Shown: in pieces, positions 25,339 through 50,271 of the stretch
Layout: each line of letters opens with the position of its first letter
Numbering within the stretch: the first letter of the stretch is position 1
Source: an uncultured Candidatus Saccharibacteria bacterium
Lineage (GTDB): Bacteria > Patescibacteriota > Minisyncoccia > Phycocordibacterales > UBA918
Direction of reading: 5' to 3'
Assembly: GCA_964350985.1 (NCBI GenBank)
Contig: CAYGLK010000001.1
Coordinates: 1 to 50,271, forward strand
DNA: 50,271 bases
Notes under the pieces: model-generated
What the model was told of the DNA's origin: nothing
The model's database searches: none
What the model saw: only the letters and a program-made list of their open reading frames with translations
Position numbers and translations under genes: made by a program

Positions 25339-25342
25339 GTAA

Positions 25343-26139: not shown

Positions 26140-26142
26140 AAA

Positions 26143-26970: not shown

Positions 26971-27074
26971 GTAAATGCGTGGCTCAGCCTAACCTTGCTT
27001 TTTCAATATTTTGTTGTATCGTGGTGATGTAATTGGTCTTTCGTCTTGATCTTTAACTCTAATTGGAGCATTGC

Positions 27075-27923: not shown

Positions 27924-27946
27924 GTGACAAAGAAGGAAGTAGCCTA

Positions 27947-27977
27947 GGCGTCGCGATAATTGTCGCGGCGCCTTTCC
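27947..27977 (+). terminator. GC-rich hairpin after the transporter gene
   Basis: GGCGTCGCGA-TAATTG-TCGCGGCGCC followed by TTTCC. Confidence 0.5.
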
Positions 27978-28066
27978 ATATGATTTTATTGAAGTATTGC
28001 TTTTTTCATATTTTATTGTACTCTTCAATTGGACCTGAATTCCTCTAGTCCTTTGTTTTAAACAAC

Positions 28067-28073
28067 AAGGAGG
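28067..28073 (+). promoter_or_regulatory. Canonical Shine-Dalgarno AAGGAGG, 5 nt before ATG 28079
   Basis: aacaAAGGAGGcagtcATG. Confidence 0.7.
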
Positions 28074-28078
28074 CAGTC

Positions 28079-28828
28079 ATGCCAGACGTTAAGTACAATA
28101 CGGGACCTTTCGCCACTCGTGCGATCGATTCCGAGCAGCAAGCAGGGATTGACGATGTGATGACCTCGATGCTGGTCGTCGCCACATTGGCTGGTTTTAC
28201 CAACCGAGTCAGGCTCACTGTTCCGGTGACGCCACTCATCTTTCCCGGTGTCTTCGACACCGATATTACAACGCTGATGCAGTGCAGTGTTGTGGATTGG
28301 TACGACAACTGTCCCGACGAGTTTGAACCGGCTTCGAAACACCTGCTTGTTGCAGGTCATCACGAGTCGGCTGGAAAACGAGAAGGTCTCAGTGTTTCGC
28401 GACTGCAAGACATCTTTGATGGTGGTCCTGTGATTCACTCACAGGTTGAAGCAGAGAACACACCAGACCAAGTACGCTGGGTTGCAGATCAAGTTGAAGA
28501 GTTGGACTTGGTAGCGGTGGCCTTGAGGGCACATCCTTTTCACGTCATGCGCGCTTTCTTGACGCAGTTGGCGGAGTTTCGCCGGCGCCGGCTGAAGGTA
28601 ATTCTTCTGCCGTGGTTGTCTCTGAGGGATCCTTTTGGCCAGTTTCCATTGACCAACCCCTGGTCTGAGACCAAGTCAGACGCTGAGTTGTGGCCAGGAG
28701 AAGCCAAACGTATCTTGGACTACAGCCAGAAGGGAGACGTGTCCACGTTGGCTGACTTGAAGGACTATTCCGACTGGCTCTTCAACGAGTCGGCTGCAGC
28801 TAGCGGACTAAGGCCTTTTGGCGCCTGA
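28079..28828 (+). CDS. Hypothetical protein, possibly DUF218/YdcF-ElyC-like (GC-rich)
   Basis: EAENTPDQVRWV..LDLVAVALRAHPFHVMRAF resembles the DUF218 pattern (E..S.NT.EN...lVTs..HM.RA). G+C is 33/60 in line 28081-28140 against 22/60 in line 26161-26220. Confidence 0.45.
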   Translation: MPDVKYNTGPFATRAIDSEQQAGIDDVMTSMLVVATLAGFTNRVRLTVPVTPLIFPGVFDTDITTLMQCSVVDWYDNCPDEFEPASKHLLVAGHHESAGKREGLSVSRLQDIFDGGPVIHSQVEAENTPDQVRWVADQVEELDLVAVALRAHPFHVMRAFLTQLAEFRRRRLKVILLPWLSLRDPFGQFPLTNPWSETKSDAELWPGEAKRILDYSQKGDVSTLADLKDYSDWLFNESAAASGLRPFGA

Positions 28829-30118
28829 GTTGACAACACTTTGCACATCGCCTCCGGGCGGTGTGCTTTTTTCTTTACGGAAGAAAAAGTATAGTCCACT
28901 TAGTAGGTCAACGATTGCTCGTATGTATGTAGCCATCACTGCTCCTAGTAAGCCAAATTTAGGTACAAAGACTAAGATACCTAAAATTAAGATGCCTGGA
29001 CCGGCAAAAGTTCCATACCAAAGTGCTTTCTGATTCTTGGTGGCGTAAAAATAGTGCCATAGTAGACCTACAGGTATAAATAACACTGTACCGATGTATA
29101 GTTGAGAAATAAAAACAGCATCAATATACACAGGAAAAAGCCATTTAAATAAGTATGGAGCTGCAAATATGTAGAGAATAGCAGGGATTACCATTATTGA
29201 AGTAAAAGTAAAGATTTTCTTTATTAAAGCAAATTTAAATTCTCGAGAAGTTTTGTCGACTAGTTTTGGAAAGGCGACAGAATTTATGTTGCCGAGCACT
29301 CCCTGGATCTCATTTGGTATTGCCATAGCAAAAAAGTAAATGGCCAACTGACTTGGTCCAAGAAATTTAAACATCAAGATTTTATCGAGTTGTCCAGCGC
29401 CAATAAAGAAAATGTTTTGTAAGGAGACTTGTTTACCGTATCGGTCAATATTTTCGTATGGTGTATTAGCGTCATCCGTGACAGGGTATTTTTTTATTGT
29501 GAATATATAAATTAAGTAGTTAGAGATATTGAGAAGAGCAAAATAAGAAAAGGTAATAACTACGATGTTTTTACTAAGGAGAATAACAGAGACTAATAAG
29601 ATGGATAAAAAGAGTCTTTGGAATATCTTCAAATAAGTTTGTGTCTTAAAGTCCTTTTTTCCCTGAAGAAGAAACTGATAATCTGTGAGTGAATCTAAAA
29701 ACGGAATCCAAATAGCTGTTAAGGCAAATAAAGAAGCAAGTAACGTATTGTCACGATATAAATAATATCCAGCAAAAGAAAAGAGCGCTACGGCACCCAA
29801 GGTTCCGTATTTGATTCTAGTTTTTAAAATTTTATTTAATGCAACATCATGTCCTTGGACTGTGGCACGAGATATGGAGATTCCAAAGCCGGTTAATGAA
29901 GTAAGGGTGGCTAGTGTAGCTATAGATAAAACGTACTTATATAAGCCGTAGTCAGAAGGGAGGACGTAATTTGCAAAAACCCAAGCCAGTAATAGTGAAC
30001 TAATAAAAATCGCTGCTTGTCCCAAGATAAGCCAGCCACTTTGACCAACGAGATAGACCATGTCTGTTTTTGTTACGGCCTCCGCGCGACGTAGCCATTT
30101 GATTGTAAAATCTTTCAT
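28808..30118 (-). CDS. Wzx-type oligosaccharide flippase (MOP superfamily)
   Basis: Twelve or more hydrophobic segments in the usual polysaccharide-biosynthesis-protein layout. TATACT-N10-ATG. The last ~21 codons run into GC-rich sequence and overlap the + gene 28079..28828. Confidence 0.7.
   Translation of the reverse strand: MKDFTIKWLRRAEAVTKTDMVYLVGQSGWLILGQAAIFISSLLLAWVFANYVLPSDYGLYKYVLSIATLATLTSLTGFGISISRATVQGHDVALNKILKTRIKYGTLGAVALFSFAGYYLYRDNTLLASLFALTAIWIPFLDSLTDYQFLLQGKKDFKTQTYLKIFQRLFLSILLVSVILLSKNIVVITFSYFALLNISNYLIYIFTIKKYPVTDDANTPYENIDRYGKQVSLQNIFFIGAGQLDKILMFKFLGPSQLAIYFFAMAIPNEIQGVLGNINSVAFPKLVDKTSREFKFALIKKIFTFTSIMVIPAILYIFAAPYLFKWLFPVYIDAVFISQLYIGTVLFIPVGLLWHYFYATKNQKALWYGTFAGPGILILGILVFVPKFGLLGAVMATYIRAIVDLLSGLYFFFRKEKSTPPGGDVQSVVNSGAKRP
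28843..28872 (+). terminator. Intrinsic terminator of the GC-rich insert, embedded in the 3' end of the minus-strand flippase ORF
   Basis: GCACATCGCC-TCCG-GGCGGTGTGC followed by TTTTTT. Confidence 0.7.
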
Positions 30119-30247
30119 GAAGTTATTTAGTATAACAATACAAACAGTAAAAAGGTGGCAGTCGATATAAGTCTTTAAATATCTAAATGCTTTTGTAGCC
30201 TCGTCTAGGGGTTAATCTGGGTCTATATATGGTATATTTGCACTCAT

Positions 30248-32440
30248 ATGAAAGATTTTTTAAAAGTTGTGGTTTATGGAGGTTTGTTCGTCGTCCCATT
30301 TTTAACACTTTATGTAGCTAATGATTATTTCTTTCCTTTTATTACAGGAAAGAACTTTGCTTTCAGAATAATTATTGAAATTGTTGTGGCTGCCTGGGCT
30401 ATTCTGTGTCTGTATGACGTAAAGTATCGGCCGAAGTTTTCTTGGATCTTGTCGTCATTCAGTGTGCTTCTGATCGTGATGTTTTTTGCCAACCTTTTGG
30501 GGCAACACCCTCAGTCAAGCTTCTGGAGTAACTTTGAACGAATGGATGGTTACGTCACCTTGGTCCACATCTTCTTATACTCTCTAGTATTGGGAAGTGT
30601 CCTGACTACCAAAAAAGCTTGGAATTGGTACCTAAATGCTACTTTGCTAGCTGCTTTTATCGCTGCTATATATGGTGTCGCGCAATACTCAGGAATGTCA
30701 GGCGATGTGGCTGGAAGAAGAATCGAGAGTTTCTTAGGTAATGCTGCCTATCTTTCGATCTACATGCTCTTCCATATCTTTATTGCTTTTTGGATGTTTG
30801 TGGAGAGTAAGGTGACATTACATCGAGTCGTCTACGGTCTTTGTTCTATACTCTTTATCTTTGCGTTGATGAACTCTGGAACTCGCGGTACTGTGCTTGG
30901 TTTTGGAGTTGGTCTTGGAGTGATGGTTACTTACGTAATGCTTTTTGGAGCTAAGTACCAAGAGTTTAGAAAGTACGCTATCGGCGTCTTTATCTTGCTG
31001 GTGCTTGGGGCCGGGACTTTGATCTTGGGGAAAGATACTGACTTCGTGCAAAATAATCCAAACATCGCTCGAGTTGCTAACATTAATCTTTCTGAAGACT
31101 TGAAGGTGCGAGGCACTATCTGGGGTATGGCTTGGGAGGGTGTGAAAGAAAGGCCAATTCTTGGATGGGGACAAGGGAACTTTAACTATGTCTTCAATGA
31201 GCAATACGATCCTTTCTTGTTTAATCAAGAACAGTGGTTTGACCGAGCGCACAGTATTATCTTTGATTGGTTGATTGCTGGAGGTTTCCTTGGTCTGCTG
31301 GCTTATGGCGGTATCTTCGCAGCTTGTTTGTATTACTTGCTGATCCAGCCTTTTATTAGAAAAGATGACGCTACTTTCACGGTGTTGGAGCGAGGGGTAC
31401 TGATCGGTATTTTAGCAGGGTACTTCACGCACAACTTAGTAGTGTTCGATAATATCGTTAGTTATATCTTCTTCGGATTGATTTTGGCCTTGATCCATAG
31501 CCGTGTAGCTTCAACGATGCCAAGTGTGACTCAGTTCAAACTTGATGAAAAATTAACTACTCAGTTTGTAGCGCCCGTGACGGCAGTCGTACTTGTCTTG
31601 GTTGTTTATTTTGTGAACATACCAAACATGAACGCTGCTAAAGATATTATCAATGGTTACCGCTCTACAAATCCAACTGAACGACTTGAGGAATTTAGAT
31701 CTGCTGTTAATCGTGATTCTTTTGCTCAGCAAGAAGTGACTGAACAAATCGCTCAACAAGCAATGGCAATGGCAGGAGACACAAATGTAGATGCTGAAAT
31801 AAGACAGCAGTATGTTGCTCTTGCAGAGACAGAGCTAAAGCGTTTGGTAGAAGATAAGCCAGGCGATGCTCGTATCCATGTCTTTATGGGGACTTTCTAC
31901 CGAGCGGTAAGGGAGTTGGATCAGGCAGCAGCTCAGATGGCTATTGCTAGAAGTCTGTCTCCAAACAAGCCAACTATTATTGCACAGCAAGCTATTGTTG
32001 CTTATTCTCAGGGTAACTTAGAAGCATCTAGAGATTTCTTTGCTGAAGCTCTGAGTCTAGATGAGAGAAATAACGAAGCCCGAGAATATTATGCTGCGTT
32101 ACTTTTCCTAACCGGTGAAGCAGAAAAAGCGATTGCGTTAGCTGACACAGAAGAAAGGCTACAGTCTTTTGCAAAGAATGAATTTCTCTTGAGTACCATA
32201 AATCAAGTCCAAGAGTTTGATTTCTTGATTACGCTTTACGAAGAGAAAATTAAACTACAACCGGTCAAAGAGCAGGACTGGACTTCACTAGCTTTCTTGT
32301 ACAATCAGTCTGGCCAGCCAGAAAAAGCAGTGGCTACACTAAGAGAGATCGCAGAACTTAAACCAACTTTCTCTAAAACTGCCAATTGTCTGGCAAATAA
32401 TATCGAGGCAGGAGATGCTCCTGAAGTAGGTTGTCAATAA
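30248..32440 (+). CDS. O-antigen-ligase-like (Wzy_C) polytopic membrane protein with C-terminal TPR domain
   Basis: NSGTRGTVLGFG, WGQGNF, FDRAHS in the membrane part; ~250-aa helical-repeat C-terminus; TGgTATATT-N9-ATG. Confidence 0.7.
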   Translation: MKDFLKVVVYGGLFVVPFLTLYVANDYFFPFITGKNFAFRIIIEIVVAAWAILCLYDVKYRPKFSWILSSFSVLLIVMFFANLLGQHPQSSFWSNFERMDGYVTLVHIFLYSLVLGSVLTTKKAWNWYLNATLLAAFIAAIYGVAQYSGMSGDVAGRRIESFLGNAAYLSIYMLFHIFIAFWMFVESKVTLHRVVYGLCSILFIFALMNSGTRGTVLGFGVGLGVMVTYVMLFGAKYQEFRKYAIGVFILLVLGAGTLILGKDTDFVQNNPNIARVANINLSEDLKVRGTIWGMAWEGVKERPILGWGQGNFNYVFNEQYDPFLFNQEQWFDRAHSIIFDWLIAGGFLGLLAYGGIFAACLYYLLIQPFIRKDDATFTVLERGVLIGILAGYFTHNLVVFDNIVSYIFFGLILALIHSRVASTMPSVTQFKLDEKLTTQFVAPVTAVVLVLVVYFVNIPNMNAAKDIINGYRSTNPTERLEEFRSAVNRDSFAQQEVTEQIAQQAMAMAGDTNVDAEIRQQYVALAETELKRLVEDKPGDARIHVFMGTFYRAVRELDQAAAQMAIARSLSPNKPTIIAQQAIVAYSQGNLEASRDFFAEALSLDERNNEAREYYAALLFLTGEAEKAIALADTEERLQSFAKNEFLLSTINQVQEFDFLITLYEEKIKLQPVKEQDWTSLAFLYNQSGQPEKAVATLREIAELKPTFSKTANCLANNIEAGDAPEVGCQ

Positions 32441-36489: not shown

Positions 36490-36822
36490 ATGAAAATAAT
36501 CACAAAGATTCTAGCTACGGCTCTCGTCTTGTTGTTGGTAGCCGAGTACATACCAGGAATTATGGTTGACGGCCTATACCCGGCTATTATTGCTGCTATC
36601 GTCTTGGGTGTTCTAAACATCTTCGTTAAGCCGATTTTGTTCATCCTAACTTTGCCGATAAACATCCTTACTCTCGGTTTGTTTATGTTTTTTATCAACG
36701 CTAGTTTGTTCTGGTTTGCCGCTACTTTTGTTCAAGGATTTAACGTTGCCAGTTTTTGGTACGCTTTCCTCGGGTCACTCATAGTGACAGCAGCAAGCTC
36801 ACTTCTAAATCGATATCTCTAA
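36490..36822 (+). CDS. Small 4-TM membrane protein, phage-holin-4 (YvlD-like) family
   Basis: LLLVAEYIPGI.V.G...AIIAAIVLGVLNIFVKPILFILTLPINILTLGLFMFFINA; stop-TT-ATG junction with secA. Confidence 0.6.
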   Translation: MKIITKILATALVLLLVAEYIPGIMVDGLYPAIIAAIVLGVLNIFVKPILFILTLPINILTLGLFMFFINASLFWFAATFVQGFNVASFWYAFLGSLIVTAASSLLNRYL

Positions 36823-39651: not shown

Positions 39652-39661
39652 TTTGGTAGTC

Positions 39662-40621
39662 ATGAAAGAGATAACTATCGAAGGAGTATTATATTTACCA
39701 GCTACAGCCCTAGCTAAGGAATTCCGCTACACCACTGACTACATAGGGCAGCTTTGCCGTTCAAAGAAGGTAGACGCTCAACTGGTAGGTAGAAGTTGGT
39801 ATGTAAATCCAATCTCACTTAAAGCCCATAAAAAGAATAAGATCAAAAAGGTGTCAAAGACTAAAGAGGTAGATGACTCAGAATTGGAGCATAAAATAAA
39901 GATATCTCGGCTAGACGTTGTTAGACCAAAGCTTGCTGAGGATGTAGATAGGGAGATTCCCCTGAAAATTAGGGCAAATGAAACAGTCGGTAGAAGTTCA
40001 AACTATATAAAGAGATTAAATTGGGAGCCAGCTAAGTATGAAGATGATGATGAAGAGCTGTTACCGACTGTCAGAAAGCAAAAAATTACCCCGCAAAAAA
40101 TAGAGATTGATCTGGCTGAATCTACCGATCTAGCTATAGAATCAACGACAAAATCAACCTATATGGTAGCTGAAACGCTACCCGAAGTTTCTCTAAAGGG
40201 GAAATTGAAGATATCCAACCTAGAGGATTATTTTGATGAAGAGGAGAGTTCGGTTACTGATACAGGACCTGAATTTAGTGTTGATGCCATTTCTGAGCTA
40301 GAGGCTACTAGAAATAGACTTCAGGCTGTTAAAAATAGACGTTCTGTAGCAAAAACACAAAGAATATCCTTAATACCTACACAAGAGTCTCGAAAAATGG
40401 ATTCAGAGAGAATGGCGTCTGAAGAAGTTGTTATTGAAGTTCATTCTCCGAGTCGTTTTATATTTTTCTCTTCCACCAGTATTTTAGTTGCGCTCGTTCT
40501 GGGGCTACTTTTTAGCGAATCGATCCTTAAAGCAGACTCAGTTTCTTACCAAAATGAAATTCAGTTTTCTAAGCCTTCCGCAGCAGCTCTAGTTTCACTT
40601 TTTTCTGAAGAAAGTTATTAA
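39662..40621 (+). CDS. Membrane-tethered protein with N-terminal excisionase/MerR-type HTH domain (paralogue 1)
   Basis: N-terminus LPATALAKEFRYTTDYIGQLCRSKKVDAQLVGRSWYVNPISL (HTH_17-like). Charged linker. Single TM helix near the C-terminus (FIFFSSTSILVALVLGLLF). Confidence 0.6.
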   Translation: MKEITIEGVLYLPATALAKEFRYTTDYIGQLCRSKKVDAQLVGRSWYVNPISLKAHKKNKIKKVSKTKEVDDSELEHKIKISRLDVVRPKLAEDVDREIPLKIRANETVGRSSNYIKRLNWEPAKYEDDDEELLPTVRKQKITPQKIEIDLAESTDLAIESTTKSTYMVAETLPEVSLKGKLKISNLEDYFDEEESSVTDTGPEFSVDAISELEATRNRLQAVKNRRSVAKTQRISLIPTQESRKMDSERMASEEVVIEVHSPSRFIFFSSTSILVALVLGLLFSESILKADSVSYQNEIQFSKPSAAALVSLFSEESY

Positions 40622-40641
40622 CATAAAAAGTTAACTTTATT

Positions 40642-40675
40642 GCTGTTATAGCTTTATAATTAAAGCTATAACAGC
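40642..40675. promoter_or_regulatory. Perfect 15-bp inverted repeat (4-nt spacer) embedding a TATAAT box and abutting ATG 40676; candidate operator
   Basis: gctgttatagcttta-taat-taaagctataacagc-ATG. Confidence 0.5.
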
Positions 40676-41479
40676 ATGTCTGAGCATATCGAAATTAATG
40701 GAATAAAGTTACTGCCCATCAAGGATACAGCAGAGGCAGTTTCGTATTCTAGAGACTATGTTGCCAGGCTAGCAAGAGAGCAAAAAATAGTTGCCTCACA
40801 AGTTGGACGTCAGTGGTATGTCGACTTACTCTCATTGAAAAGTTTTTCGGAAATCGCCGAGATGGAATCATCAGTTCGTAAACAGCAACTGAGTCAAGAG
40901 AGAAAAAGAGAAAAAGATCTAAAGGATCAACTCGCTGAAATAAAAAGCCACCTGAAAGTAAAATCAAAAGCAGTGCGCCCTAGAGCAAGAGTGATGGCTG
41001 TATCTGTCTTGGCTTTTGGTTTGTTGGCTGGAACTGGTCTTTATTCTGCTTTGAGTTTTTTCCCGCAGCACGCAAATGACATCTCATTGGCGCGAGTTAT
41101 CACTGATAAAAAAGTACCAGAAATAAAGCCTGTAGTAGAAAATGAATTGAAAGTAATTGATCCTGAACTTGATTTGCATCAAGTTGCGGTGGTAACTCAA
41201 ATATCTGAAATACCTGTTTTTACGGAGGAAGTAGATATTAGATTCTTGTCTGCCGACACTAATAACGGAATTTTACTACTACCAAAAAAAGCTGACTCGG
41301 AGACAAAAACTGAAATTCCAGAATTATTTTCTGATTATGTAATCGTGAATTTTGTCGATGAAGATAGGGGGGTTGTTGTTTATGACAAGGATGGAAAAGT
41401 AACGGAACTGCCTTTTGTGGCAGTTCCGGTTGATGCTGGCGAAGGAAGTTTGTCAGAAGATAAGGCCTTAAACCAATAA
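40676..41479 (+). CDS. Membrane-tethered protein with N-terminal excisionase/MerR-type HTH domain (paralogue 2)
   Basis: LPIKDTAEAVSYSRDYVARLAREQKIVASQVGRQWYVDLLSL aligns with paralogue 1. TM helix VMAVSVLAFGLLAGTGLYSALSFF, then a ~140-aa C-terminal domain. Confidence 0.6.
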   Translation: MSEHIEINGIKLLPIKDTAEAVSYSRDYVARLAREQKIVASQVGRQWYVDLLSLKSFSEIAEMESSVRKQQLSQERKREKDLKDQLAEIKSHLKVKSKAVRPRARVMAVSVLAFGLLAGTGLYSALSFFPQHANDISLARVITDKKVPEIKPVVENELKVIDPELDLHQVAVVTQISEIPVFTEEVDIRFLSADTNNGILLLPKKADSETKTEIPELFSDYVIVNFVDEDRGVVVYDKDGKVTELPFVAVPVDAGEGSLSEDKALNQ

Positions 41480-41482: not shown

Positions 41483-44400
41483 ATGGCTACTTCTCTTCAG
41501 ACAAAAGCCTTGAATTCAATCGCTAAAATAGCAATTTTACTTTTGGTGTTGTTGCCGGTAATCACTCAAGCGCAGATAAATCCTCAAATTAACTACCAAG
41601 GAAAGCTAACTGATGCTAGTGGTGTGGCTGTGCCTGACGGCTTGTACAACATGAACTTCTGGTTAATCGCCTCAGACGTAGCGGCTACCAGTTCTGCTGT
41701 CTGGTCTGAAACTCTAGTGAGTGGTAACCGGGTTCAAATTACTAATGGATTGTTCTCAGTGATGCTCGGTGAGCAATCTTCGCTAGCGGCTGTGGATTTT
41801 GATCAGACACTTTATCTTGGAGTTGAGATCGGTGGTATCAGTACAACTACTCCAGCTTGGGATGGTGAAATGAGTCCACGAAAAATTCTTGGTGCAGTGC
41901 CAGCAGCTTTTCAAGCAAATAATGCCAACAATGCTGAAGCTCTAAGCGGCATCGCAAGTAGTTCTTTCTTGCGCAGTGATGAGGTAGATACTATGGAGGC
42001 AACCTCTAGTTCGCCAGTACTTTCAATTATCCAAAGAGGTGTTGGTAAAGTCCTTAGTCTTTTCAGTGGAGTCACTGAAGTGTTTACAGTTTTAAATAAT
42101 GGAAATGTAGGAATCGGAGACACAAGCCCTAGTCACTCTTTGGTTGTAGCAACTTCATCTGAAAGTGGAGATCTGATTGCAGTCAATTCAAACAATGGAA
42201 CTTCAGTGATTCTGGGAATTGATTCTTCAGGAATTAATCATTACTTGGGGAAAATAAATTTATCAGGCTCGACAAACACGAGTGGAGATCGAGGTATTGG
42301 AGGAAGAATTACAGCTAATGCAGCAAATGATATCTATCAAGCAAACGACGCTGTTTTTCAATTTGACGCCACTTCTGCAGGGGGAGATATTTCAAATGCA
42401 AATGCTTATACTTTCAATGAAAATAATGTTGCTCGGATGGTTATTGATGCAAATGGAAACGTTGGTATTGGTACTACTACTCCAAACTATCGCCTTACTG
42501 TCTCTGGTGACTTTAATTCTACGGGAGCACTTCGCTTTAATGGAGACGCAGGCACAACAGGCCAAGTACTTTTATCAAACGGAAGTTCTGCTCCGTCGTG
42601 GACCTCAACTTCAACGCTTGGTTTCCAAGCCTATGACGCAGAACTAAATGCACTAGCCGGACTCGCTTCAGGAGCAGACCTACTACCATACTTCACCGGA
42701 TCAGGTACAGCTGGACAAACAACCTTCACTGCTTTTGCTAGAACTCTACTGGATGACACTAATGCTTCAGTAGCTAGAACAACACTAGGAGCAACCACGG
42801 TTGGAGCAAACATCTTTACTCTAGCTAACCCAAGTGCAGTTAGACTAATCCAAATCAATGCAGATAACACTGTGACTGCGATTGCGACTTCGTCGTTGGG
42901 AGTTGGCTCAGTCACTTCAGTAGCTGCCACCGTTCCAACTGGATTCACAATTGGAGGTTCACCAATAACTACTTCAGGCACGCTGGCATTTGATTTTGCT
43001 GCCGGTTACGAAGGACTACGAAGCGCTTCTTCAACAAACTGGAACAACTTCTATAACACTCCAAGTACAAGAATTACTGCAGCTAATAATTTAGCTTGGA
43101 CAGGGAATACGCTAGGTGTGGCAGCGGGATACAACATCCCACTAACTGCTTCTTCAACCGAATGGTCACAAGCTTACGCCTCAACCACTGCCCTTACTCC
43201 AACATACTTACGAGGACTATTTTCAAACACAGCTACTGGACTGACATATACCTCAGGTACTGGCGTCACTTCACTAACTGGTGGGTACAACATCCCACTA
43301 ACAGCTTCAACTACTGAGTGGAGCAATGCTCTAGCTTCAACTCATCCTCCAGTTACTATCACTGGCGAAAACTATCTTTCACTTAACGGCAGTCAACAAA
43401 TCACCGCTAATCAAATCAACCTAGCAGGCACAAATGTTACTGGCACACTACCAGTGACTCAGGGAGGAACAGGTATTACTGCTTTTGGCGCAGGCGTTGC
43501 TGCTTTCCTTGGCACACCATCAAGCGCTAACTTAGCTGCTGCTGTCACTAATGAAGTAGGGACTGGTCCATTGGTATTTGCATCAAGTACTGTTTTAACT
43601 TCTCCAACATTAACAGGCACACCAATCTTGCCGGGAACATTTACTATCGGTGCTAATAACTTCATCCGTTCAGGGGCACATAGCTTAACTTTAACCACTA
43701 CTGGTACAACAGTGGCTACTATCCCTTCTGGAACAAATACTCTTTATGGTACAGGGTCGGGATCAATTACTTCAGCTCAACTAGCAACTTCACTTTCAAA
43801 TGAAGTAGGGACTGGTCCGGCGGTGTTTGCGTCTAGTACTATGTTGACAGCTCCAACCTTAACAGGGACAACTACAGCTACCAATTTGGCTGTCAGCGGA
43901 AACAGTGTCTTTGCCACAACGACTATTAATAATTTAACTCTGACTCAAGCCTTAGGCTTAGCCAACGGAGGAACAGGAGCAACTACTCAAGCTGGAGCTC
44001 GAACTAACTTAGGGGCAACCACAGTCGGATCAAACATCTTTACTCTAGCTAACCCAAGTGCAGTAAGTTTGTTGCGAATCAATGCTGATAACACTGTAAC
44101 TGCAGTGGCGACTTCGTCTCTTGGATTTAACGATCACGCTTCAGTAACAGTGACAGGTGAAAACTACCTGTCACTTTCAGGACAACAAATCACTGCTAAT
44201 CAAATTAACCTAGCTGGCACAAATGTTACTGGAACCCTACCAGTGGCTCAAGGAGGAACAGGCATCACATCATTCGGTTCAGGCGTCGCAACCGCCCTTG
44301 GCATCAACGTCGGTACAGCTGGATCTTTTGTCACCAACGGCGGCGCTCTTGGTACACCATCATCAGGAACACTAACTAATGCTACTGGATTACCAATCAC

Positions 44401-47400
44401 TACAGGAGTCTCCGGTCTAGCGGCTAACATAGCAACTTTCTTAGGTACGCCATCGAGCGCCAACTTAGCTGCTGCTGTCACTGATGAAACCGGAACAGGG
44501 AGCGTGGTCTTCTCTGATTCACCAACACTAACTGGCAACGCAACTCTAGTAAACGCTTCAACAACTGCACTTACTGCAAATACTCTTTATTTTAATAACG
44601 CTTCTTCAACTGGAGGTCTTACTCTTGCAACCCTCTACGGTGCAAATTTGACTTCATGTAATTCTGCTACAGAAAAACTCTTATGGACTAATGGAACGTT
44701 TACTTGTGGAGTAGATGCAGGTGGAGCTGGAGGTACAATAGAAAGTTTAAATGGTAGTACTGTTGCTTCACAAAGTTTTGCTACTTCAAGTTCAGGAGGA
44801 CTTAACCTCACAGTTAGCAGTGATATTGGTTCAGGAGTCCATACTTTCACAATCGGTACTCTTGCTGGATATTCGCTACCTCTAACCGCATCATCAACCA
44901 ACTGGAATACTTTCTACAACACTCCAAGTACAAGAATTTCTACCACTGACAATCTTGCTTGGACAGGAAACACACTAGGAGTTGCTGCCGGATACAACAT
45001 CCCACTAACAGCTTCTACTACAAACTGGAACAACACATACAACACAGTGACCGCTAACAGTGCGAGTTGGAATGCAGCCGCAGCTTCAACTACTGCTCTA
45101 ACTCCAGCATACTTACGCGGACTATTTTCAAACACTGCAACTGGACTAACATACACTTCAGGAACTGGAGTCACTTCATTAACAGCTGGATACACTATTC
45201 CACTGACAGCTTCAACTACTGAGTGGAGCAATAAAGTTTCATCACAGTGGACAACTAGTGGTACTGATATTTATTACAATACTGGGAATGTGGGGATTGG
45301 AACTACGGCCCCAAATGCTAAATTGTCTCTAGGTGCAACTACAGCTGCACAAAAGGTTCTACTGTACGAAAGTGGTAATACTCGATTTGGTTTTGGTACA
45401 CCTGGTGCTGGTGAACTTAGAATGTTTACCGCAGGTGGAGCAGGAAGTTTTATCGGTTTTGGTCAGGTTTCAAGTTCAGATGGTAGTACATATTCTGAAT
45501 TTATGAGAATTAATGGAAGTGGAGACGTCGGTATTGGTACAACAACACCACAGGAGAAACTTCATGTAAGTGGTGGAGATATTAGTATCGAACGCGGCAC
45601 CACCTATAATTCTTATCGTCCAGACGTAAACATTATGTATCAGCTTCTTGGTCATGATACTTCAAACAACGTAAACCTTTACGGAATAGGAACAAATGAT
45701 TATCTCAGAATAACACCTGGAGGAGAATTTCGTTTTATCGAAAATAATATTCAGTTACTAACTTTGACCAATACTACAGGTTACCTTGGTATTGGTACCA
45801 CCACTCCTTCAGCCAAACTCTCAGTTACTGGCTCTGGTACTGGTACTGGCCTCCTTGCTCAATTCACTGACAGTGCTAACACACCACGAATGACAATTTT
45901 GGATAATGGGAATATTGGTATCGGCACAACCACACCAGGAAGCCAATTGACTATACAAAGGTTTGAAAGTGCGAGCGGTGGAGCTGGAGACAGTCAAATT
46001 TCTCTAATTTCTTCAATCGGAGGAAATGTCCTTGAAGGATACTCCATTGGTGGAATCGATTTTGTTTCAAATGATTTAAATACGCTATATACAGTGGCTA
46101 GTATTAAGGCAATTGCTTCTGGCTCTCATACCGGTTCTAGTTATGATACTGACTTGGTCTTTAGTGCAACGACTGACAATTCTCCAGTGGAATATATGCG
46201 AATCGATAAAGATGGAAATATCGGTATCGGTACCAGTACTCCAGGATACCGACTCACCGTAGCTGGAGACACTAACTTCACTGGAGTACTCCGTTTAAAC
46301 GGTAACTCAGGTACCTCAGGACAAGTACTACAATCCACTGGTTCAAGTGCACCAGCTTGGGTAGCAACTTCATCTCTAGGTTTCGGTACTGGCTCAGTCA
46401 CCAGCGTTGATGGTTCAGGTGGTACTACCGGACTAACTCTAACTGGCGGACCAATCACAACTTCAGGAACCTTAACTCTTGGTGGTACTTTAGCAGTGGC
46501 TAATGGAGGTACAGGCATCACATCATTCGGAACTGGAGTGGCTACTGCACTTGGTATCAACGTTGGTACCGCTGGATCTTTTGTCACCAACGGCGGAGCA
46601 CTAGGTACACCTGCTTCAGGAACACTAACTAATGCTACTGGACTACCGATCATCGCTGGAACAACTGGTACCCTTACAGTTGCCAGGGGTGGTACCGGAG
46701 CAACTGATGCCTCAGGCGCTCGAACAAACCTCGGCCTCGCTATCGGATCAGACGTCCAAGCATACGACGCAGAACTAAACGCACTTGCTGGACTATCTTC
46801 AGACACTGACCTACTACCATACTTCACTGGCATTGGTACCGCAGGACAAACTACACTAACTTCTTTTGCTAGAACTCTACTTAATGATACAGACGCTTCA
46901 GTTGCTAGAGCTACTCTTGGTCTAAACAATGTGGAGAACACAGCACTTTCAACTTGGGCTGGTTCTTCAAATATCAATACTGTTGGCGTCCTAAACTCTG
47001 GATCAATCAATACTGGCTTTGGCAACATCAACATCGGTGCTAGTACTTTCACTACAACTGGAGCTGCTTCAATTGGAAACGCTTCAACTACTAACCTCAC
47101 AGTTACTGGCAACAGTTACTTAGGTACAGTACAAAGTGGAGTATGGAATGGTTCAGTTATTGGAGACGCATATCTTGATAAGACAGGAAACTGGACTGGA
47201 ACTTTTGATGGACAAGAGGGAACTTTCTACCTAAACCGAGCTAACCACACAGGTACACAAACTGCTTCAACTATCTCAGACTTTAGTACTACTGCTCGAG
47301 GATTATTCTCAAACACAGCTACCGGCTTAACATACACTTCAGGTACTGGTGTTACTTCACTAACAGCCGGATACACAATTCCACTTACAGCTTCAACAAC

Positions 47401-50271
47401 TGAGTGGGCTAACAACAACCACGCTCCAGTTACTATTGCTGGTCAAAACTACCTCTCACTATCTGGACAAGTGTTAACCGCAAACGCAGTTAACCTAGCA
47501 AGCTCTAATGTCACTGGCACACTACCAGTGGCTAATGGCGGTACTGGAGCTATCACTCTTGGAGCTGGTCAGATTCTAGTTGGCAATGGTACTGGAGCTG
47601 TCACTAGTACTAGTACAGCTAACTTGAAGACTACTCTTGGTCTAAACAATGTGGAGAACACAGCACTTTCAACTTGGGCTGGTTCTTCAAATATCAATAC
47701 TGTTGGCGTCCTAAACTCTGGATCAATCAATACTGGCTTTGGCAACATCAACATCGGAGCTAGTACTTTCACTACAACTGGAGCAGCTTCAATCGGAAAC
47801 GCTTCAACTACTAACCTCACAGTTACTGGCAACAGTTACCTAGGTACACCAATTAGTCTGACTCTAACAAATGCTACTGGACTACCAATCGTTGGTGGAA
47901 CAACTGGTACATTAAGTGTGGCCAGAGGTGGTACTGGAGCTACTACTTTAACTGGTATCCCAGTTGGCAATGGTACAAGTGCTATGACCGCAGTTGCGGG
48001 TACAGGAAGTCAAATCCTCCGTCGTAACGCAGGAAACAGCGCCTATGAGTTCGCGACCCTCTCACCAACTATTACTCTCGGTACTGACTTAACTGGCTCA
48101 GCCTCTCTCACCAACCTTGGTTCTGCTACCCTCAACGCCACCATCGCTGCCAACGCTGTCACCCTCGCTAAGTTCCAAACAATCGGTACTGGCAGTATCC
48201 TTGGTCGCTCTACTGCTGGCACTGGCAACGTTGAAGTTCTTAGTACTTTGCCGACTGCAGTGCAAGACAACATCACTAGAACTGGAGTATTAAATAGTGG
48301 ATCAATCAATACTGGCTTTGGCAACATCAACATCGGAGCAAGTACCTTTACTACTACTGGGGCAGCTTCAATCGGAAACGCCTCAACCACAAACTTAACT
48401 GTCGCTACTAATAGTTACCTTGGTACTGTTCAAAGTGGACTATGGCAGGGAACAGCGATCGGAGCTATCTACGGAGGAACAGGTCAAACTACCTACGCTA
48501 CAGGAGATCTTTTATATGCTTCAAACTCAACTACTCTAGCGCGTAGAGCTATTGGAACAGCGGGTCAAATCCTCCTAGTTACCGGAGGATTACCAACTTG
48601 GACTTCTACTTCAACTCTGGGACTTTCATCAAGTTTCTCTAACTCAGCTCAACTTGCAGCGTTACTTTCTGACGAAGTAGGAACTGGTCCAGCAGTGTTT
48701 GCTTCTTCAACTGTTCTAACAGCTCCAACTGTGTTTGGCACAACTACACTTTGGAATAATGTTGGGATTGGGACTACTAACCCTGGAGCAAAACTAGAAG
48801 TAGTTGGAGATATTATTTCTAAAGGAACAGAGTGGACTAGTAGAACTACGCCAGTTGATAACCAATGGACTTCTGTCACTTACGGCAACGGCCTGTTTGT
48901 GGCTGTTGCTCAGTCAGGGACAGATAATCGTGTCATGACCTCACCGGATGGAGTTAACTGGGCTACCACCACGAGTTATGCAGATTATAATTGGTCAGAT
49001 ATAACCTACGGCAACGGTCTGTTTGTCGCCGTGTCATCAGATGGTTATGGCGACCGCGTCATGACTTCACCTGATGGAATTAATTGGACGGGTCGAAATA
49101 GCGCTGCTGATAATCCATGGTCAGATATCACCTACGGCAAAGGCACGTTTGTAGCGGTGGCATCTTTTGGGTCTGGTGACGATGTTATGACTTCGCCGGA
49201 CGGAATAAATTGGACCTCTCACAGCAGTGCTGCTGCTAATGAATGGACTGCTATCACCTACGGCAATGGACTTTTTGTTGCTGTCTCTGGAGACGGAACT
49301 GATCGCGTCATGACTTCTCCAGACGGTATTACTTGGACGTCACGCACTAGTATTTCTAAGTATTGGAATGACATAACCTATGGTAATGGTCTCTTCGTTG
49401 CTGTTGCATATGATGACGGTGTTATGACTTCTCCAGACGGTATTACTTGGACATCACGCTCCAGCGCTGCTTCAAATGCTTGGCAATCTGTCACCTACGG
49501 AAATGGACTTTTTGTCGCTGTGTCAGAAGACGGTTCTGGCAACCGCGTCATGACCTCACCTGACGGTATTACTTGGACATCTAGAGCTAGTGCGGCTGAT
49601 AATAATTGGTTCTCTGTAACTTACGGCAATGGCATCTTTGTGGCTGTGTCATTCGACGGTTCAAGTAACCGCGTCATGACCTCGGGCAAAACTGAACTCA
49701 ACGCTCTAGCAAACAACAACATCTACCAAGGAGGTATGAGTGTTTTTGGGAACGTAAATATTGGGACCACAACTGATACTGGATTGCCGTTTTATGTAGA
49801 AGGAGATATTGGTATAGGTTCTTCGGGTCAATATGGTAGCTTGTATTTCAATCGTGATTACAATAATCCAGGTGGGATCACCTATGATTTTACCAACAAC
49901 AAACTCAGTTTGGGGACAAATTATGATTTTTCTAGATTAGTGATTGGAGACAATGGTAATGTGGGTATAGGTACAACAAACCCAGGAGCGAAGCTTGAAG
50001 TGGTTGGTGATATTGTTTCCAAGGGAACCTCTTGGACCAGTAGGACGACCCCAACTTCTAACCTTTGGTCTTCAATTACTTACGGCAATGGACTCTTTGT
50101 GGCAGTTGCGTTTACAGGTACCGGCGACCGCGTCGTAACATCACCAGATGGAGTTAACTGGGCTACTTCTACCACTCCTGCTGATAATAGTTGGCAATCC
50201 GTCACCTACGGTAACGGTCTTTTTGTGGCAGTGGCAAACTCAGGTTCTGGCAACCGCGTCATGACCTCACC
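41483..50271 (+). CDS. Giant secreted/surface protein (>2,929 codons, 3' end outside the window) built from tail-fibre-like repeat modules and Asp-box beta-propellers
   Basis: ATG 41483 lies 3 nt after the upstream stop. N-terminus [31 protein letters not shown] looks like a signal or anchor. The frame was hand-checked as open at 41483-42660, 45242, 46742 and 50222, and no in-frame stop produces a track entry. Recurrent motifs: GNVGIGTT(T)P..KL.V.G, GGTG...[24 protein letters not shown]. All minus-strand ORFs here are P/V/A-rich shadows. Confidence 0.9.
46911..47128 (+). repeat. Intragenic 218-bp direct repeat, copy 1
   Basis: Differs from 47631-47848 at 4 positions (47038, 47065, 47074, 47120). 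The offset is exactly 720 bp, so the copies are in frame. Confidence 0.95.
47631..47848 (+). repeat. Intragenic 218-bp direct repeat, copy 2
   Basis: See copy 1. A third, diverged copy at ~48285-48425 shares a 42-nt identical core (48298-48339). Confidence 0.95.
48833..49690 (+). other. Seven tandem ~40-aa blades with Asp-box (S-P-D-G-x-x-W): predicted 7-bladed beta-propeller domain of the giant protein
   Basis: Seven copies of W..(I/V)TYGNG(L/I)FVAV....G..RVMTSPDG(I/V)(N/T)W. A second array starts at 50033 and runs off the window. Confidence 0.7.

What the first reader, a model, noticed from the sequence alone, without database searches (positions are those of the whole stretch)
41483..50271. 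Giant (>2,929 aa, still open) surface protein assembled from shuffled phage-tail-fibre-like modules; invisible in the ORF track
Seen: one uninterrupted + frame runs from ATG 41483 to the window end. It has a hydrophobic N-terminal signal or anchor and is dominated by T, G, S, A and N. It is built from recurring modules that reappear in different orders. GN(V/I)GIGTT(T)P..(K/Q/R)L.V.G occurs at least 10 times, for example near 42460, 45290, 45530, 45785, 45910, 46210, 48765 and 49960. [12 protein letters not shown]..(A/T)[31 protein letters not shown] occurs near 42640 and 46760. [32 protein letters not shown] occurs near 42790 and 44010. FYNTPSTRI...[22 protein letters not shown]..(E/N)W occurs near 43050 and 44905. 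[33 protein letters not shown] occurs three times. LP(V/I)..GGTG...G.. and GGTGA....GARTNLG recur. LS(N/D)EVGTGP.VFASST.LT.PT occurs three times. Most copies differ at synonymous sites, so they are maintained at the protein level. From memory, the ALAGL..LPYFTG...LT.F.R.LL and GGTG..AR.NLG motifs are the signatures of tail-fibre repeats of tailed phages. There are no capsid, terminase or integrase genes nearby. Inference: this is a domesticated tail-fibre-like, probably trimeric, fibrous adhesin many hundreds of nm long if extended. In an episymbiotic CPR cell it is an obvious candidate for host-cell recognition.
Basis: partly seen in the sequence, partly recalled or inferred. Interest (0 to 1): 0.8.

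Follow-up and report, generated by a model that had tools for sequence, protein, structure and literature searches.

The report
Giant phage-fibre-like surface fibre, CPR bacterium
A real, secreted protein of at least 2,929 amino acids in a Patescibacteria (CPR) chromosome is built like the phage-tail-fibre-like "MAT" fibres that predatory Bdellovibrio uses to grab prey, with a conserved base and a cassette-shuffled shaft, so it is a concrete candidate for how these tiny bacteria bind other cells.

Summary
One + frame is open from ATG 41483 to the window end (2,929 codons). It starts with a Sec-type signal peptide. About 87% of the protein lies in recurring cassettes whose DNA copies are 60-86% identical.

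The tail-fibre resemblance survives testing:
- Several cassettes match tail-fibre PHROGs and annotated or inferred phage tail fibres.
- The VGIGTxxPxxxL regions match the crystallised trimeric beta-helix of Bdellovibrio MAT fibres (8OND, 8OJN).
- The N-terminal domain of about 150 aa is homologous to the one that follows the signal peptide in Bdellovibrio-type fibres.
- A confidently modelled 7-bladed propeller cassette has 52-53% identical counterparts in viral fibre proteins.

The gene is chromosomal, next to SecA-Obg-GatB, in a Paceibacteria/Kaiserbacteria-like genome. Two related genomes carry positional orthologues (3,101 and 3,236 aa). These keep only the N-domain (70-77% identical, like GatB) and replace the shaft.

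Best reading: a giant MAT-type, probably trimeric, surface fibre adhesin with a constant base and a hypervariable shaft.

Not shown: trimer state, ligand, and the C-terminus, which is cut by the window.

It belongs to a very large bacterial family rather than being a one-off domestication.

Verdict: a new variant of a known kind, of moderately high interest.

The parts
39653..40621 (+). Upstream partner gene 1: 322-aa protein with an N-terminal HTH (excisionase/HTH_17-like), a charged linker and one TM segment near the C-terminus
   Evidence: Translation. Its HTH is paralogous to the next gene (41% over 51 aa). Syntenic orthologues in L082 and L083 are 38-40% identical. No Pfam hit.
40676..41479 (+). 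Upstream partner gene 2: 267-aa HTH + linker + one TM + ectodomain of about 135 aa. Its stop codon lies 3 nt before the giant gene's ATG, so co-transcription is likely.
   Evidence: Translation. Syntenic orthologues are 39-45% identical, and the L082 orthologue has a weak PF12728 HTH_17 hit. No terminator or promoter lies in the 3-nt gap; a promoter-like site sits at 40631-40660. Homologous HTH-TM segments are fused to the N-terminus of giant homologues P0019, P0059, P0100 and P0040.
41483..41572 (+). Sec-type signal peptide (aa 1-30: n-region with K8/K15, h-region [12 protein letters not shown], c-region TQA|Q)
   Evidence: In 95 of 120 homologues the N-domain starts around residue 30.
41573..42022 (+). 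Conserved beta-rich N-terminal domain (aa 31-180), the proposed cell-proximal base of the fibre
   Evidence: Present once, right after the signal peptide, in 97 of 120 homologues at 45-77% identity. AF2 pLDDT is about 90 for the core of about 110 aa, all beta. No PDB fold match. Homologous to the N-termini of Bdellovibrio fibres (hhalign E 1.4e-4 and 2.9e-5; iterated HMM E 1e-8 to 6e-6). The family has 46,902 representative clusters.
42023..42607 (+). First beta-helix block with two capping-loop motifs (aa 209 and 327)
   Evidence: PDB sequence hits to 8OND and 8OJN. PHROG tail-fibre families 9942 and 18345. Motif positions.
42608..45244 (+). Cassette block A (aa 376-1254): [50 protein letters not shown]/GITxFG and EVGTGP cassettes, mostly in 2-3 copies
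   Evidence: Self-comparison. PHROG tail-fibre hits at 2e-8 to 1e-6. aa 652-1016 align at 39-65% identity (E 1e-27 to 2e-29) with an unannotated 718-aa ORF among the virion genes of podovirus MW202701.1, which I read as its tail fibre.
45245..46402 (+). Main beta-helix block (aa 1255-1640) with five capping-loop motifs
   Evidence: 8OND Bd2133 E 1e-7 and 8OJN Bd3182 E 2.4e-4. phrog_9942 at 5e-22 and phrog_18345 at 3e-17, both tail fibre. Tail-fibre proteins of cyanophages, pelagiphages and roseophages.
46403..48757 (+). Cassette block B (aa 1641-2425): second ALAGL/LPYFTG copy, three [16 protein letters not shown] cassettes, third LFSNTATGL copy, third LS(D)EVGTGP copy
   Evidence: aa 1750-1945 match 123 phage records; the best is the Rhizobium phage RHph_N3_13 tail fibre at 46% identity, E 2e-19. 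PHROG tail-fibre hits at 2e-10 to 5e-8. Contains the only near-identical DNA repeat (46911-47128 and 47631-47848, 98%).
48758..49726 (+). Capping loop followed by a complete 7-bladed beta-propeller cassette (aa 2426-2748; blades of about 42 aa with YGNGLFVAV...VMTSPDG)
   Evidence: Pfam EPTP 39.4 bits. Blade register. AF2 pLDDT 90.2, pTM 0.89, 7 x 4 strands. Best PDB match is Ycf48, TM about 0.70. BFVD matches at 52-53% identity, TM 0.90-0.94, including a Caudovirales protein with an intramolecular chaperone auto-processing domain.
49727..50023 (+). Inter-propeller beta-helix linker with a degenerate and a strict capping loop (aa 2749-2847)
   Evidence: aa 2826-2875 are 86% identical to aa 2426-2475.
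50024..50271 (+). Start of a second propeller cassette (two blades visible). The ORF is still open at the window end.
   Evidence: The positional orthologues are 3,101 and 3,236 aa.

Best explanation
The gene encodes a Sec-exported, cell-surface fibre of the MAT (mosaic adhesive trimer) type, in a Paceibacteria/Kaiserbacteria-like CPR bacterium.

Proposed mechanism:
1. The signal peptide is removed.
2. The conserved beta-rich N-domain holds the base at the cell surface. It may dock on the ectodomains of the two co-encoded HTH-TM membrane proteins.
3. Three chains intertwine into beta-helix/beta-prism segments punctuated by VGIGTxxPxxxL capping loops.
4. Phage-type fibre cassettes extend the shaft, and each chain contributes 7-bladed propellers as lateral or distal knobs.
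5. The missing C-terminus probably carries an autoproteolytic intramolecular chaperone (Peptidase_G2-like or S74) that nucleates trimer folding from the C-terminal end, as in phage fibres.
6. The fibre, roughly 100-170 nm long, binds surface structures (most likely glycans) of another cell. Cassette turnover at a fixed locus diversifies its specificity.

Shown: the ORF, the cassette architecture, homology to phage fibre modules and to Bdellovibrio fibre domains, the chromosomal syntenic location, the conserved-base and variable-shaft pattern, and the propeller fold.

Inferred: trimer state, surface anchoring mode, the nature of the C-terminus, the ligand, and the role in host recognition.
For: - The ORF is open and starts with a signal peptide.
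- Beta-helix blocks match the crystallised trimeric Bdellovibrio MAT fibres 8OND (E 1e-7) and 8OJN (2.4e-4), with the capping-loop residues aligned. The MAT definition is taken from PMC10769870.
- The N-domain sits immediately after the signal peptide and is homologous to that of Bdellovibrio fibre ORFs. Its predicted beta-rich fold has no PDB match, as reported for the MAT N-domain.
- Tail-fibre PHROGs and annotated or inferred phage fibres match at least four cassette types.
- The propeller cassette is 52% identical to a Caudovirales protein that has an intramolecular-chaperone domain.
- Close relatives carry Peptidase_S74 with the SDxxxK motif near the C-terminus. 34 of the 120 best homologues carry PF13884.
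- The C-terminus of positional orthologue P0001 passes the Pfam threshold for Peptidase_G2 IMC (28.5 bits against a cut-off of 25).
- The synteny SecA-holin-like-Obg-GatB-HTH/TM x2-giant is conserved in two genomes.
- The N-domain is 70-77% identical among these orthologues and GatB 66-70%, but the shaft cassettes are not shared.
- Cassette copies are under purifying selection.
Against: - No multimer prediction or experiment shows a trimer.
- The C-terminal tip lies outside the window, and no SDxxxK motif is in the visible part.
- Pfam and NCBIfam give no fibre-family hit on the protein itself. The fibre evidence comes from PHROGs, PDB sequences and tblastn.
- The Bdellovibrio N-domain link is statistically moderate. 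The hhalign probabilities are 53-74%, and the stronger E-values come from an iterated profile on a small database.
- The Bdellovibrio ORFs used are from Bdellovibrio sp. HCB-162 and MAGs, not the characterised HD100 proteins.
- CPR cells lack an outer membrane, so the anchoring may differ from Bdellovibrio.
- The lifestyle of this lineage is unknown. Some Parcubacteria are argued to be free-living (title of PMC12625730).
Confidence: 0.65

Rival explanations
1. It is a surface fibre of the same build, but its job is not host-cell recognition. It could bind particles, biofilm matrix or polysaccharide nutrients, or form a protective fibrous coat or spacer around the cell.
For: - Nothing in the sequence identifies a ligand.
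- The N-domain family also occurs in many non-predatory, non-symbiotic phyla such as Flavobacteriales, Chlorobiaceae, Fibrobacteres and Nitrospirota.
- The propeller fold is generic.
- A large glycosylation cluster in the window suggests an elaborate cell envelope.
Against: - Hypervariable shaft and tips at a conserved locus with a conserved base are the signature of recognition proteins facing a diversifying target. A structural coat would not be expected to vary like this.
- The nearest characterised relatives bind prey surfaces.
Confidence: 0.17
2. It is a phage or prophage tail-fibre gene, that is, a virion component sitting in a contig of viral origin.
For: Multiple cassettes match phage tail fibres, and a 'Phage_holin_4_2' Pfam hit lies 5 kb upstream.
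Against: - No capsid, terminase, portal, integrase or tail gene occurs in the 50 kb.
- The neighbours are SecA, MurB, Obg and GatB, and this order is conserved in two other genomes, including the holin-like gene.
- The protein has a Sec signal peptide and a cellular N-domain in place of a virion-attachment domain.
- It is 3-10 times longer than the matching phage fibres.
Confidence: 0.03
3. It is an assembly artefact or a decaying pseudogene: repeats collapsed or mis-joined to give a false long open frame.
For: - Contigs often break inside these genes. Many homologues are 'partial', and the only other contig with this locus ends at window position 42836.
- One 218-nt repeat pair is 98% identical.
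Against: - All other repeat copies are only 60-86% identical at the DNA level, too divergent to mis-assemble.
- 8.8 kb stays free of stops, with synonymous-biased divergence between copies.
- Full-length orthologues of 3,101 and 3,236 aa exist at the same locus, as do hundreds of homologues of 1.6-4.8 kaa.
Confidence: 0.03
4. It is an interbacterial weapon or toxin-delivery fibre, comparable to polymorphic toxin or CDI-like filaments, with a C-terminal toxin beyond the window.
For: The C-terminus is unseen. Giant repetitive secreted proteins with variable ends include toxin-delivery systems. Some CPR are predatory.
Against: - Both positional orthologues end in a conserved Peptidase_G2-like region plus an acidic P/E-rich tail, not a toxin domain.
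- Relatives end in S74 chaperones.
- No immunity-like small ORF pattern or TPS/CdiB partner is present.
Confidence: 0.05

Closest known systems
Bdellovibrio bacteriovorus MAT (mosaic adhesive trimer) fibres, e.g. Bd2133 (PDB 8OND) and Bd3182 (PDB 8OJN); Caulton et al. 2024, PMC10769870
   Same: - A signal peptide is followed at once by a conserved beta-rich N-domain.
- The beta-helix shaft has VGxGxxxPxxxL-type capping loops, with direct sequence matches.
- The downstream modules are mosaic and swappable.
- Relatives split into S74-ending and non-S74 forms.
- The producer is a bacterium likely to depend on contact with other cells.
   Different: - It is at least three times longer (>=2,929 aa against about 1,000).
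- It contains several beta-helix blocks interleaved with repeated phage-type cassettes and internal 7-bladed propellers, rather than one shaft and one tip.
- The producer is a CPR bacterium without an outer membrane.
- It is encoded with two HTH-TM partner genes.
- No Patescibacteria member appears in the text of that paper's supplementary files held here; its Table S3 lists proteins of 481-1,001 aa.
- Trimerisation and the tip are untested here.
Tail fibres of tailed phages that carry the ALAGL...LPYFTG...LT.F.R.LL and GGTG...AR.NLG repeats, e.g. Rhizobium phage RHph_N3_13 tail fibre, and the unannotated 718-aa ORF of podovirus MW202701.1 (inferred tail fibre)
   Same: Cassette-level homology: 46-60% identity (E 2e-19) for the ALAGL module, and 39-65% identity (E 1e-27 to 2e-29) over aa 652-1016 for the GGTG/EVGTGP module. 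Tail-fibre PHROGs also match.
   Different: - It is not in a viral genome.
- It has no virion-adaptor N-terminus; it has a Sec signal peptide plus a cellular N-domain.
- It is many times longer, with cassettes duplicated and reordered.
Intramolecular-chaperone fibre and spike proteins: K1F endosialidase and T5 L-shaped tail fibre (Peptidase_S74), and phi29 gp12 (Peptidase_G2)
   Same: Relatives carry S74 with SDxxxK near the C-terminus. Positional orthologues carry a Peptidase_G2-like region. The capping-loop beta-helix is the element that precedes S74 domains.
   Different: No such domain lies in the visible 2,929 aa. Its presence in this protein is inferred only from synteny.
Giant surface proteins of other CPR bacteria (Vampirococcus lugosii, Absconditicoccaceae; PMC8080830, PMC13059738)
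   Same: Very large, secreted or membrane-bound proteins proposed to mediate recognition of and attachment to hosts.
   Different: Those are described with WD40, PKD, integrin, FN3 and similar domains. No tail-fibre or MAT architecture is reported for them in the passages I read.
Trimeric autotransporter adhesins (YadA, AtaA)
   Same: They are functional analogues: long, repetitive, trimeric surface fibres with modular stalks.
   Different: There is no YadA-type head, stalk or anchor signature. The organism has no outer membrane for a beta-barrel anchor. The polarity is opposite, because a TAA is anchored at its C-terminus.

Membership tests
MAT (mosaic adhesive trimer) fibre superfamily (Caulton et al. 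2024) | [quoted passage not shown] | tested here: met
   - Signal peptide at aa 1-30, N-domain at aa 31-180.
- hhalign against Bdellovibrio fibre N-termini gives E 1.4e-4 and 2.9e-5 over about 124 columns.
- An iterated HMM reaches four Bdellovibrio ORFs at E 1e-8 to 6e-6, in the same position.
- The AF2 model is beta-rich.
- Caveat: the comparison used Bdellovibrio sp. HCB-162 and MAG proteins, not the HD100 proteins.
MAT (mosaic adhesive trimer) fibre superfamily (Caulton et al. 2024) | Beta-helix shaft with recurring capping-loop motif (V-G-x-G/N-x-x-x-P-x-x-x-L) | tested here: met
   Nine strict motif copies. phmmer hits to 8OND (1e-7) and 8OJN (2.4e-4) align motif to motif.
MAT (mosaic adhesive trimer) fibre superfamily (Caulton et al. 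2024) | Homotrimer with intertwined chains along the fibre | not testable with these tools
   Only monomer prediction is available. The trimer state is inferred from homology to trimeric crystal structures.
MAT (mosaic adhesive trimer) fibre superfamily (Caulton et al. 2024) | C-terminal tip that is either an S74 chaperone/protease (SDxxxK) or an alternative adhesive domain | tested here: inconclusive
   - The ORF is cut by the window end, and no SDxxxK lies in the visible part.
- Relatives P0049, P0016 and P0023 have Peptidase_S74 with SDxxxK near the C-terminus.
- Positional orthologues have a Peptidase_G2-like region.
MAT (mosaic adhesive trimer) fibre superfamily (Caulton et al. 2024) | Located on the producer's surface and binds target-cell envelope components | not testable with these tools
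   Sequence shows only the export signal.
Phage tail fibre (virion component) | Encoded among virion structural genes of a phage or prophage | tested here: not met
   The neighbours are housekeeping genes and the synteny is conserved.
Phage tail fibre (virion component) | N-terminal domain that attaches the fibre to the tail or baseplate | tested here: not met
   The N-terminus is a Sec signal peptide plus the cellular N-domain. No PHROG hit covers aa 1-200.
Phage tail fibre (virion component) | Fibre shaft repeats shared with tail-fibre families | tested here: met
   Tail-fibre PHROG hits down to 5e-22. tblastn hits to annotated tail fibres and to an unannotated podovirus ORF that I infer to be its tail fibre.
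Peptidase_S74 'tail fiber domain-containing protein' (PF13884) | PF13884 domain with a catalytic Ser-Lys dyad | tested here: inconclusive
   It is absent from the 2,929 aa in the window. It is present in 34 of the 120 best homologues. The C-terminus is missing.
Trimeric autotransporter adhesin | YadA-like head and stalk repeats and a C-terminal beta-barrel anchor | tested here: not met
   No such Pfam hit appears in whole-protein or segment scans. The C-terminus is unseen, but the orthologue C-termini show no YadA anchor.
EPTP / 7-bladed beta-propeller repeat | About seven tandem blades of about 42 aa that fold into a closed propeller | tested here: met
   PF03736 at 39.4 bits against a cut-off of 21. 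Seven blades. AF2 pLDDT 90, pTM 0.89. Foldseek finds 7-bladed propellers. The Pfam name refers to an animal domain, so only the fold is shared.

The most novel reading that the evidence does not exclude
The fibre and the two co-encoded HTH-TM proteins form one contact-sensing device.

- The fibre's conserved N-domain docks on the ectodomain of a membrane-spanning protein whose cytoplasmic end is a DNA-binding HTH.
- Binding or tension on a fibre of 100 nm or more, for example on touching a host cell, would then be relayed directly to transcription.
- In some lineages the two parts are fused into one polypeptide: a giant fibre with an N-terminal cytoplasmic HTH and a signal-anchor.

This would be a new kind of one-component mechanosensor or attachment sensor. 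It could explain how ultra-small symbionts with few classical regulators switch programmes on host contact.
Probability: 0.12. Interest if true: 0.85.

Novelty: new variant of a known kind. Interest (0 to 1): 0.6.

Why it matters
How CPR/Patescibacteria find and hold on to other cells is a central open question. So far mainly type IV pili and loosely described 'large surface proteins' have been implicated.

This locus ties a very large, mostly unannotated CPR protein family to a structurally characterised recognition system, the Bdellovibrio MAT fibres, and to the phage tail-fibre cassette pool. The N-domain is found in 46,902 representative clusters, and the named hits listed are almost all Patescibacteria.

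That gives concrete, expressible parts to test:
- the N-domain for anchoring;
- the propeller and tip cassettes for ligand binding;
- the S74 or G2 domains for autoprocessing.

It also gives a genomic marker: a syntenic locus with a constant base and a variable shaft. This could be used to predict host range or strain-level specificity in metagenomes. It further suggests that bacteria which live on other bacteria, and the phages around them, draw on one shared toolbox of fibre modules.

Tried and rejected
- Whole-protein scans against Pfam, PHROGs and NCBIfam gave almost nothing: only EPTP, with no fibre family. Segment-wise Pfam also gave nothing. Only segment-wise PHROGs, PDB sequence searches and tblastn revealed the relationships.
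- A BLAST self-comparison of the whole protein returned only the identity hit. I replaced it with a 50-aa chunk scan.
- I could not recover the rest of the ORF. The only other contig with the locus ends inside the gene. An exact 47-nt tag from the window end is absent from genome contigs and metagenome contigs.
- The search for the bd2133 locus itself in the GTDB representatives failed. Other Bdellovibrio and Bacteriovorax fibre loci were returned and used instead.
- PDB sequence searches for the ALAGL/NVENT block, the propeller and the orthologue C-terminus found nothing useful.
- The N-domain fold search found no significant match.
- The listing of cluster members gave no organism names. Taxonomy came from GatB relatives instead.
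- I considered the prophage reading and rejected it on context and synteny.
- I considered assembly collapse and rejected it on repeat divergence.
- I considered the TAA and toxin-delivery readings and rejected them on domain content.
- The second giant gene downstream in the orthologous loci is not a paralogue with the N-domain.

Full report
**1. The observation**

The + frame that starts at ATG 41483 stays open to the last base of the window, 2,929 codons in all. The ORF lister omits it only because it runs off the end. The protein is rich in T, G, S, A, L and N. Its only strongly hydrophobic stretch is aa 9-30, which ends in TQA|Q, so it looks like a Sec signal peptide.

A scan of 50-aa chunks shows that 87% of the protein has at least one other copy elsewhere in the protein.

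At the DNA level the copies are 60-86% identical, and 32-56% of conserved residues use different codons. The copies are therefore old and kept at the protein level, and mis-assembly by repeat collapse is unlikely. The single exception is a 218-nt pair at 46911-47128 and 47631-47848, which is 98% identical.

- a conserved N-terminal domain (aa 31-180);
- a complete seven-blade repeat unit (aa 2440-2748) and the start of a second one;
- a cassette present three times ([10 protein letters not shown] / [18 protein letters not shown]).

**2. Context and organism**

The window is ordinary chromosome. It carries Mur ligases, a TrwB-like ATPase, CofD, a long glycosyltransferase/methyltransferase/polysaccharide cluster, a Wzy-like TPR protein, MurB, SecA, a 4-TM 'holin_4_2' family protein, Obg and GatB. 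Two small unannotated genes follow, and then the giant gene. No phage structural or integration gene is present.

The nearest named relatives of GatB are Ca. Kaiserbacteria (70% identity), Paceibacterota (66-68%) and Nomurabacteria (65%). Among the listed relatives of the giant protein and of its N-domain that carry an organism name, nearly all are Patescibacteria. The CPR assignment therefore holds. The lifestyle of this lineage is not known.

**3. What the modules are**

Whole-protein profile searches are nearly blind here, but searches on segments are not.

- *Beta-helix blocks.* The VGIGTxxPxxxL-rich blocks (aa 181-375 and 1255-1640) hit tail-fibre PHROGs at 5e-22 and 3e-17. By sequence they also hit the solved structures 8OND (Bd2133, E 1e-7) and 8OJN (Bd3182, 2.4e-4), with the motif aligned on the 'capping loops' of those structures. 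These are the Bdellovibrio 'mosaic adhesive trimer' (MAT) fibres. They are intertwined trimeric beta-helices related to S74-type phage spikes, are displayed on the predator, and bind prey envelope components.
- *ALAGL...LPYFTG cassette.* It matches 123 phage records. The best are annotated tail fibres at 46-60% identity, E 2e-19.
- *GGTG / EVGTGP / LTNATGLP cassettes.* aa 652-1016 align at 39-65% identity (E 1e-27 to 2e-29) with a 718-aa ORF in a complete podovirus genome from a freshwater spring. The ORF is unannotated and lies among the virion genes, between a 'phage stabilization protein' and a WD40-repeat protein and upstream of the tail assembly chaperone. I read it as that phage's tail fibre.
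- *Seven-blade unit.* It is predicted with high confidence (pLDDT 90, pTM 0.89) as a closed propeller. Its best PDB match is the generic propeller Ycf48. Among viral models it has near-identical folds at 52-53% sequence identity, including a Caudovirales protein that carries an intramolecular chaperone auto-processing domain.

**4. The constant base**

The segment aa 28-180 occurs once, directly after the signal peptide, in 97 of the 120 best homologues, at 45-77% identity. All other cassettes are patchy.

- A profile of this domain finds 46,902 representative clusters (21,650 at E<=1e-10). The domain almost always starts near residue 30, in proteins of up to about 5,000 aa.
- It folds as a compact beta-rich domain with no significant PDB fold match. 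The MAT paper says the same of its N-domain.
- I fetched fibre loci from Bdellovibrio and other phyla. Their ORFs carry a similar domain in the same position.
- hhalign gives E 1.4e-4 and 2.9e-5 over the whole domain.
- One profile iteration through Nitrospirota, Cloacimonadota, Chlorobiaceae, Fibrobacteres, Flavobacteriales and Phycisphaerae fibres reaches four Bdellovibrio ORFs at E 1e-8 to 6e-6.

Two of the MAT family's sequence-defined features are therefore met. The trimer state cannot be tested here, and the tip lies beyond the window.

**5. Orthologues and the missing end**

Two related genomes have the same gene order: SecA, holin-like, Obg, GatB, a gene of about 320 aa, a gene of about 262 aa, then a giant gene of 3,101 or 3,236 aa, followed by a second, unrelated giant gene. 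The window's gene is therefore probably only a few hundred codons short.

Among the three genomes GatB is 66-70% identical and the fibre N-domain 70-77% identical, yet the shafts are not colinear:
- one orthologue has only generic beta-helix blocks and no propeller;
- the other has four propellers;
- neither has the window's ALAGL, NIFTL, FYNT, LFSNT, ENYLSL or EVGTGP cassettes.

This is a constant base with a replaced shaft at a fixed locus, the pattern expected of a recognition protein under diversifying pressure.

The two orthologues share a conserved C-terminal region. In one of them it passes the Pfam threshold for Peptidase_G2, the autocleaving intramolecular chaperone of phi29-type appendages. 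An acidic P/E-rich tail follows. Other close relatives carry Peptidase_S74 with the SDxxxK motif 150-300 residues from the end, and 34 of the 120 best homologues have PF13884. This mirrors the S74 versus non-S74 split among MAT fibres.

**6. Mechanism**

I propose a Sec-exported, probably homotrimeric surface fibre.
- The N-domain forms the cell-proximal base.
- Beta-helix blocks and phage-type cassettes form the shaft.
- Propellers form knobs that are candidate ligand-binding sites.
- A C-terminal chaperone domain is likely to nucleate trimer folding.

Scaling from the published fibres (922 aa for about 55 nm; 370 aa for about 14-15 nm) gives roughly 100-170 nm. This is about the width of an ultra-small cell, not 'many hundreds of nm'.

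The ORF, the architecture, the homologies, the synteny and the variability pattern are shown. The trimer, the anchoring, the ligand and the biological role are inferred.

**7. Rivals**

- A phage or prophage origin is contradicted by context, synteny and the N-terminus.
- An assembly artefact is contradicted by repeat divergence and by full-length orthologues.
- A toxin-delivery filament is not supported by the orthologue C-termini.
- The serious rival is the same fibre with a different job, such as attachment to particles or matrix, or a protective coat. Sequence cannot exclude this.

**8. Comparison with what is known, and novelty**

Giant surface proteins proposed to mediate host attachment are already described for CPR, with other domain types. 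MAT fibres are described for Bdellovibrio and for a few other predators or symbionts, at 481-1,001 aa. No Patescibacteria name occurs in the text of that paper's supplementary files held here. No paper in the library links the MAT term with CPR. NCBI names at least one relative 'tail fiber domain-containing protein'.

I therefore rate this a new variant of a known kind. It is a giant MAT-type fibre with several beta-helix blocks and internal propellers, in a CPR lineage without an outer membrane, and it belongs to a very large, essentially unannotated family.

**9. A lead worth following**

The two genes just upstream are paralogous proteins with an HTH, a charged linker and one TM segment. 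The second ends 3 nt before the giant gene's ATG, with no intervening signals. They are conserved in synteny. Homologous HTH-TM segments form the N-terminus of four giant homologues that lack the N-domain. This fusion pattern suggests a physical or functional coupling between the fibre and a membrane-spanning DNA-binding protein.

Noticed in passing
window 39653-40621 and 40676-41479 (+): Two paralogous genes with no significant Pfam match encode an HTH (excisionase/HTH_17-like), a charged linker and a single TM segment. They are syntenic with the giant gene in two other genomes. Homologous HTH-TM segments are fused to the N-terminus of giant homologues P0019, P0059, P0100 and P0040, which lack the usual N-domain. 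This may be a membrane anchor or a contact-signalling partner of the fibre.
   Followed up: partly
window 14189-32440, especially 18000-26000: A long cluster of glycosyltransferases (GT1, GT2, GT25, GT-D, DXD-type), FkbM and other methyltransferases, sugar epimerase/dehydratase genes, a Wzx-like flippase and a Wzy_C+TPR protein. The 18-26 kb part has clearly lower GC (33-37% against about 41%). It may be a horizontally acquired surface-glycan or protein-glycosylation island. It could decorate the T/S-rich fibre, but that was not tested.
   Followed up: no
window 36490-36822 (+): A 110-aa protein with 4 TM segments matches Pfam 'Phage_holin_4_2' (1e-30). It sits directly after SecA in this window and in both syntenic genomes, so it is a conserved cellular membrane protein and not evidence of a prophage.
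   Followed up: yes
window 762-1631 (-), 9634-11673 (+), 11676-13079 (+): A weak T4SS-pilin-like hit, a TrwB-like coupling-protein ATPase, and an adjacent Lamin-tail-domain + PKD surface protein. These may be parts of the monoderm-type type IV secretion or conjugation apparatus reported for Patescibacteria.
   Followed up: no
L084 8173-10326 (+) = MW202701.1, complete podovirus genome from Manatee Spring: The record annotates an antisense 'ribonuclease E' CDS where the + strand holds a 718-aa ORF, apparently the phage's tail fibre. It shares [17 protein letters not shown] cassettes with the window protein. The next gene, called 'WD40 repeat protein', is a long repeat protein. The record appears to be mis-annotated. 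The phage comes from a spring, and its host is unknown.
   Followed up: partly
L082 15328-21306 and L083 16094-21711: In both syntenic genomes a second giant gene (at least 2,040 aa and 3,830 aa) follows the fibre gene directly. It has a signal peptide or anchor but lacks the N-domain, so it is a different kind of giant surface protein. The window ends before the equivalent position.
   Followed up: partly
window 46911-47128 and 47631-47848: This is the only near-identical (98%) internal DNA repeat. It encodes two 100% identical 72-aa cassettes, which points to a recent duplication or gene conversion. It is the one place where short-read assembly could be wrong.
   Followed up: partly
window 42000-50271, both strands: GC skew flips from positive to negative inside the giant gene, and long antisense ORFs appear there (for example 46141-47112 on the - strand, 323 aa). 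Both are most likely by-products of the gene's extreme codon composition and not real genes.
   Followed up: no
window 2803-5325 (+): An 840-aa protein whose only Pfam match is a Mur-ligase middle domain at aa 526-647. The first 500 residues or so are unexplained.
   Followed up: no
one search hit list; L001: Very many N-domain proteins in public data are 'partial' and sit at contig ends. The only other assembly of this locus breaks at window position 42836. These fibre genes appear to fragment short-read assemblies systematically, so their abundance and length are probably under-reported.
   Followed up: partly
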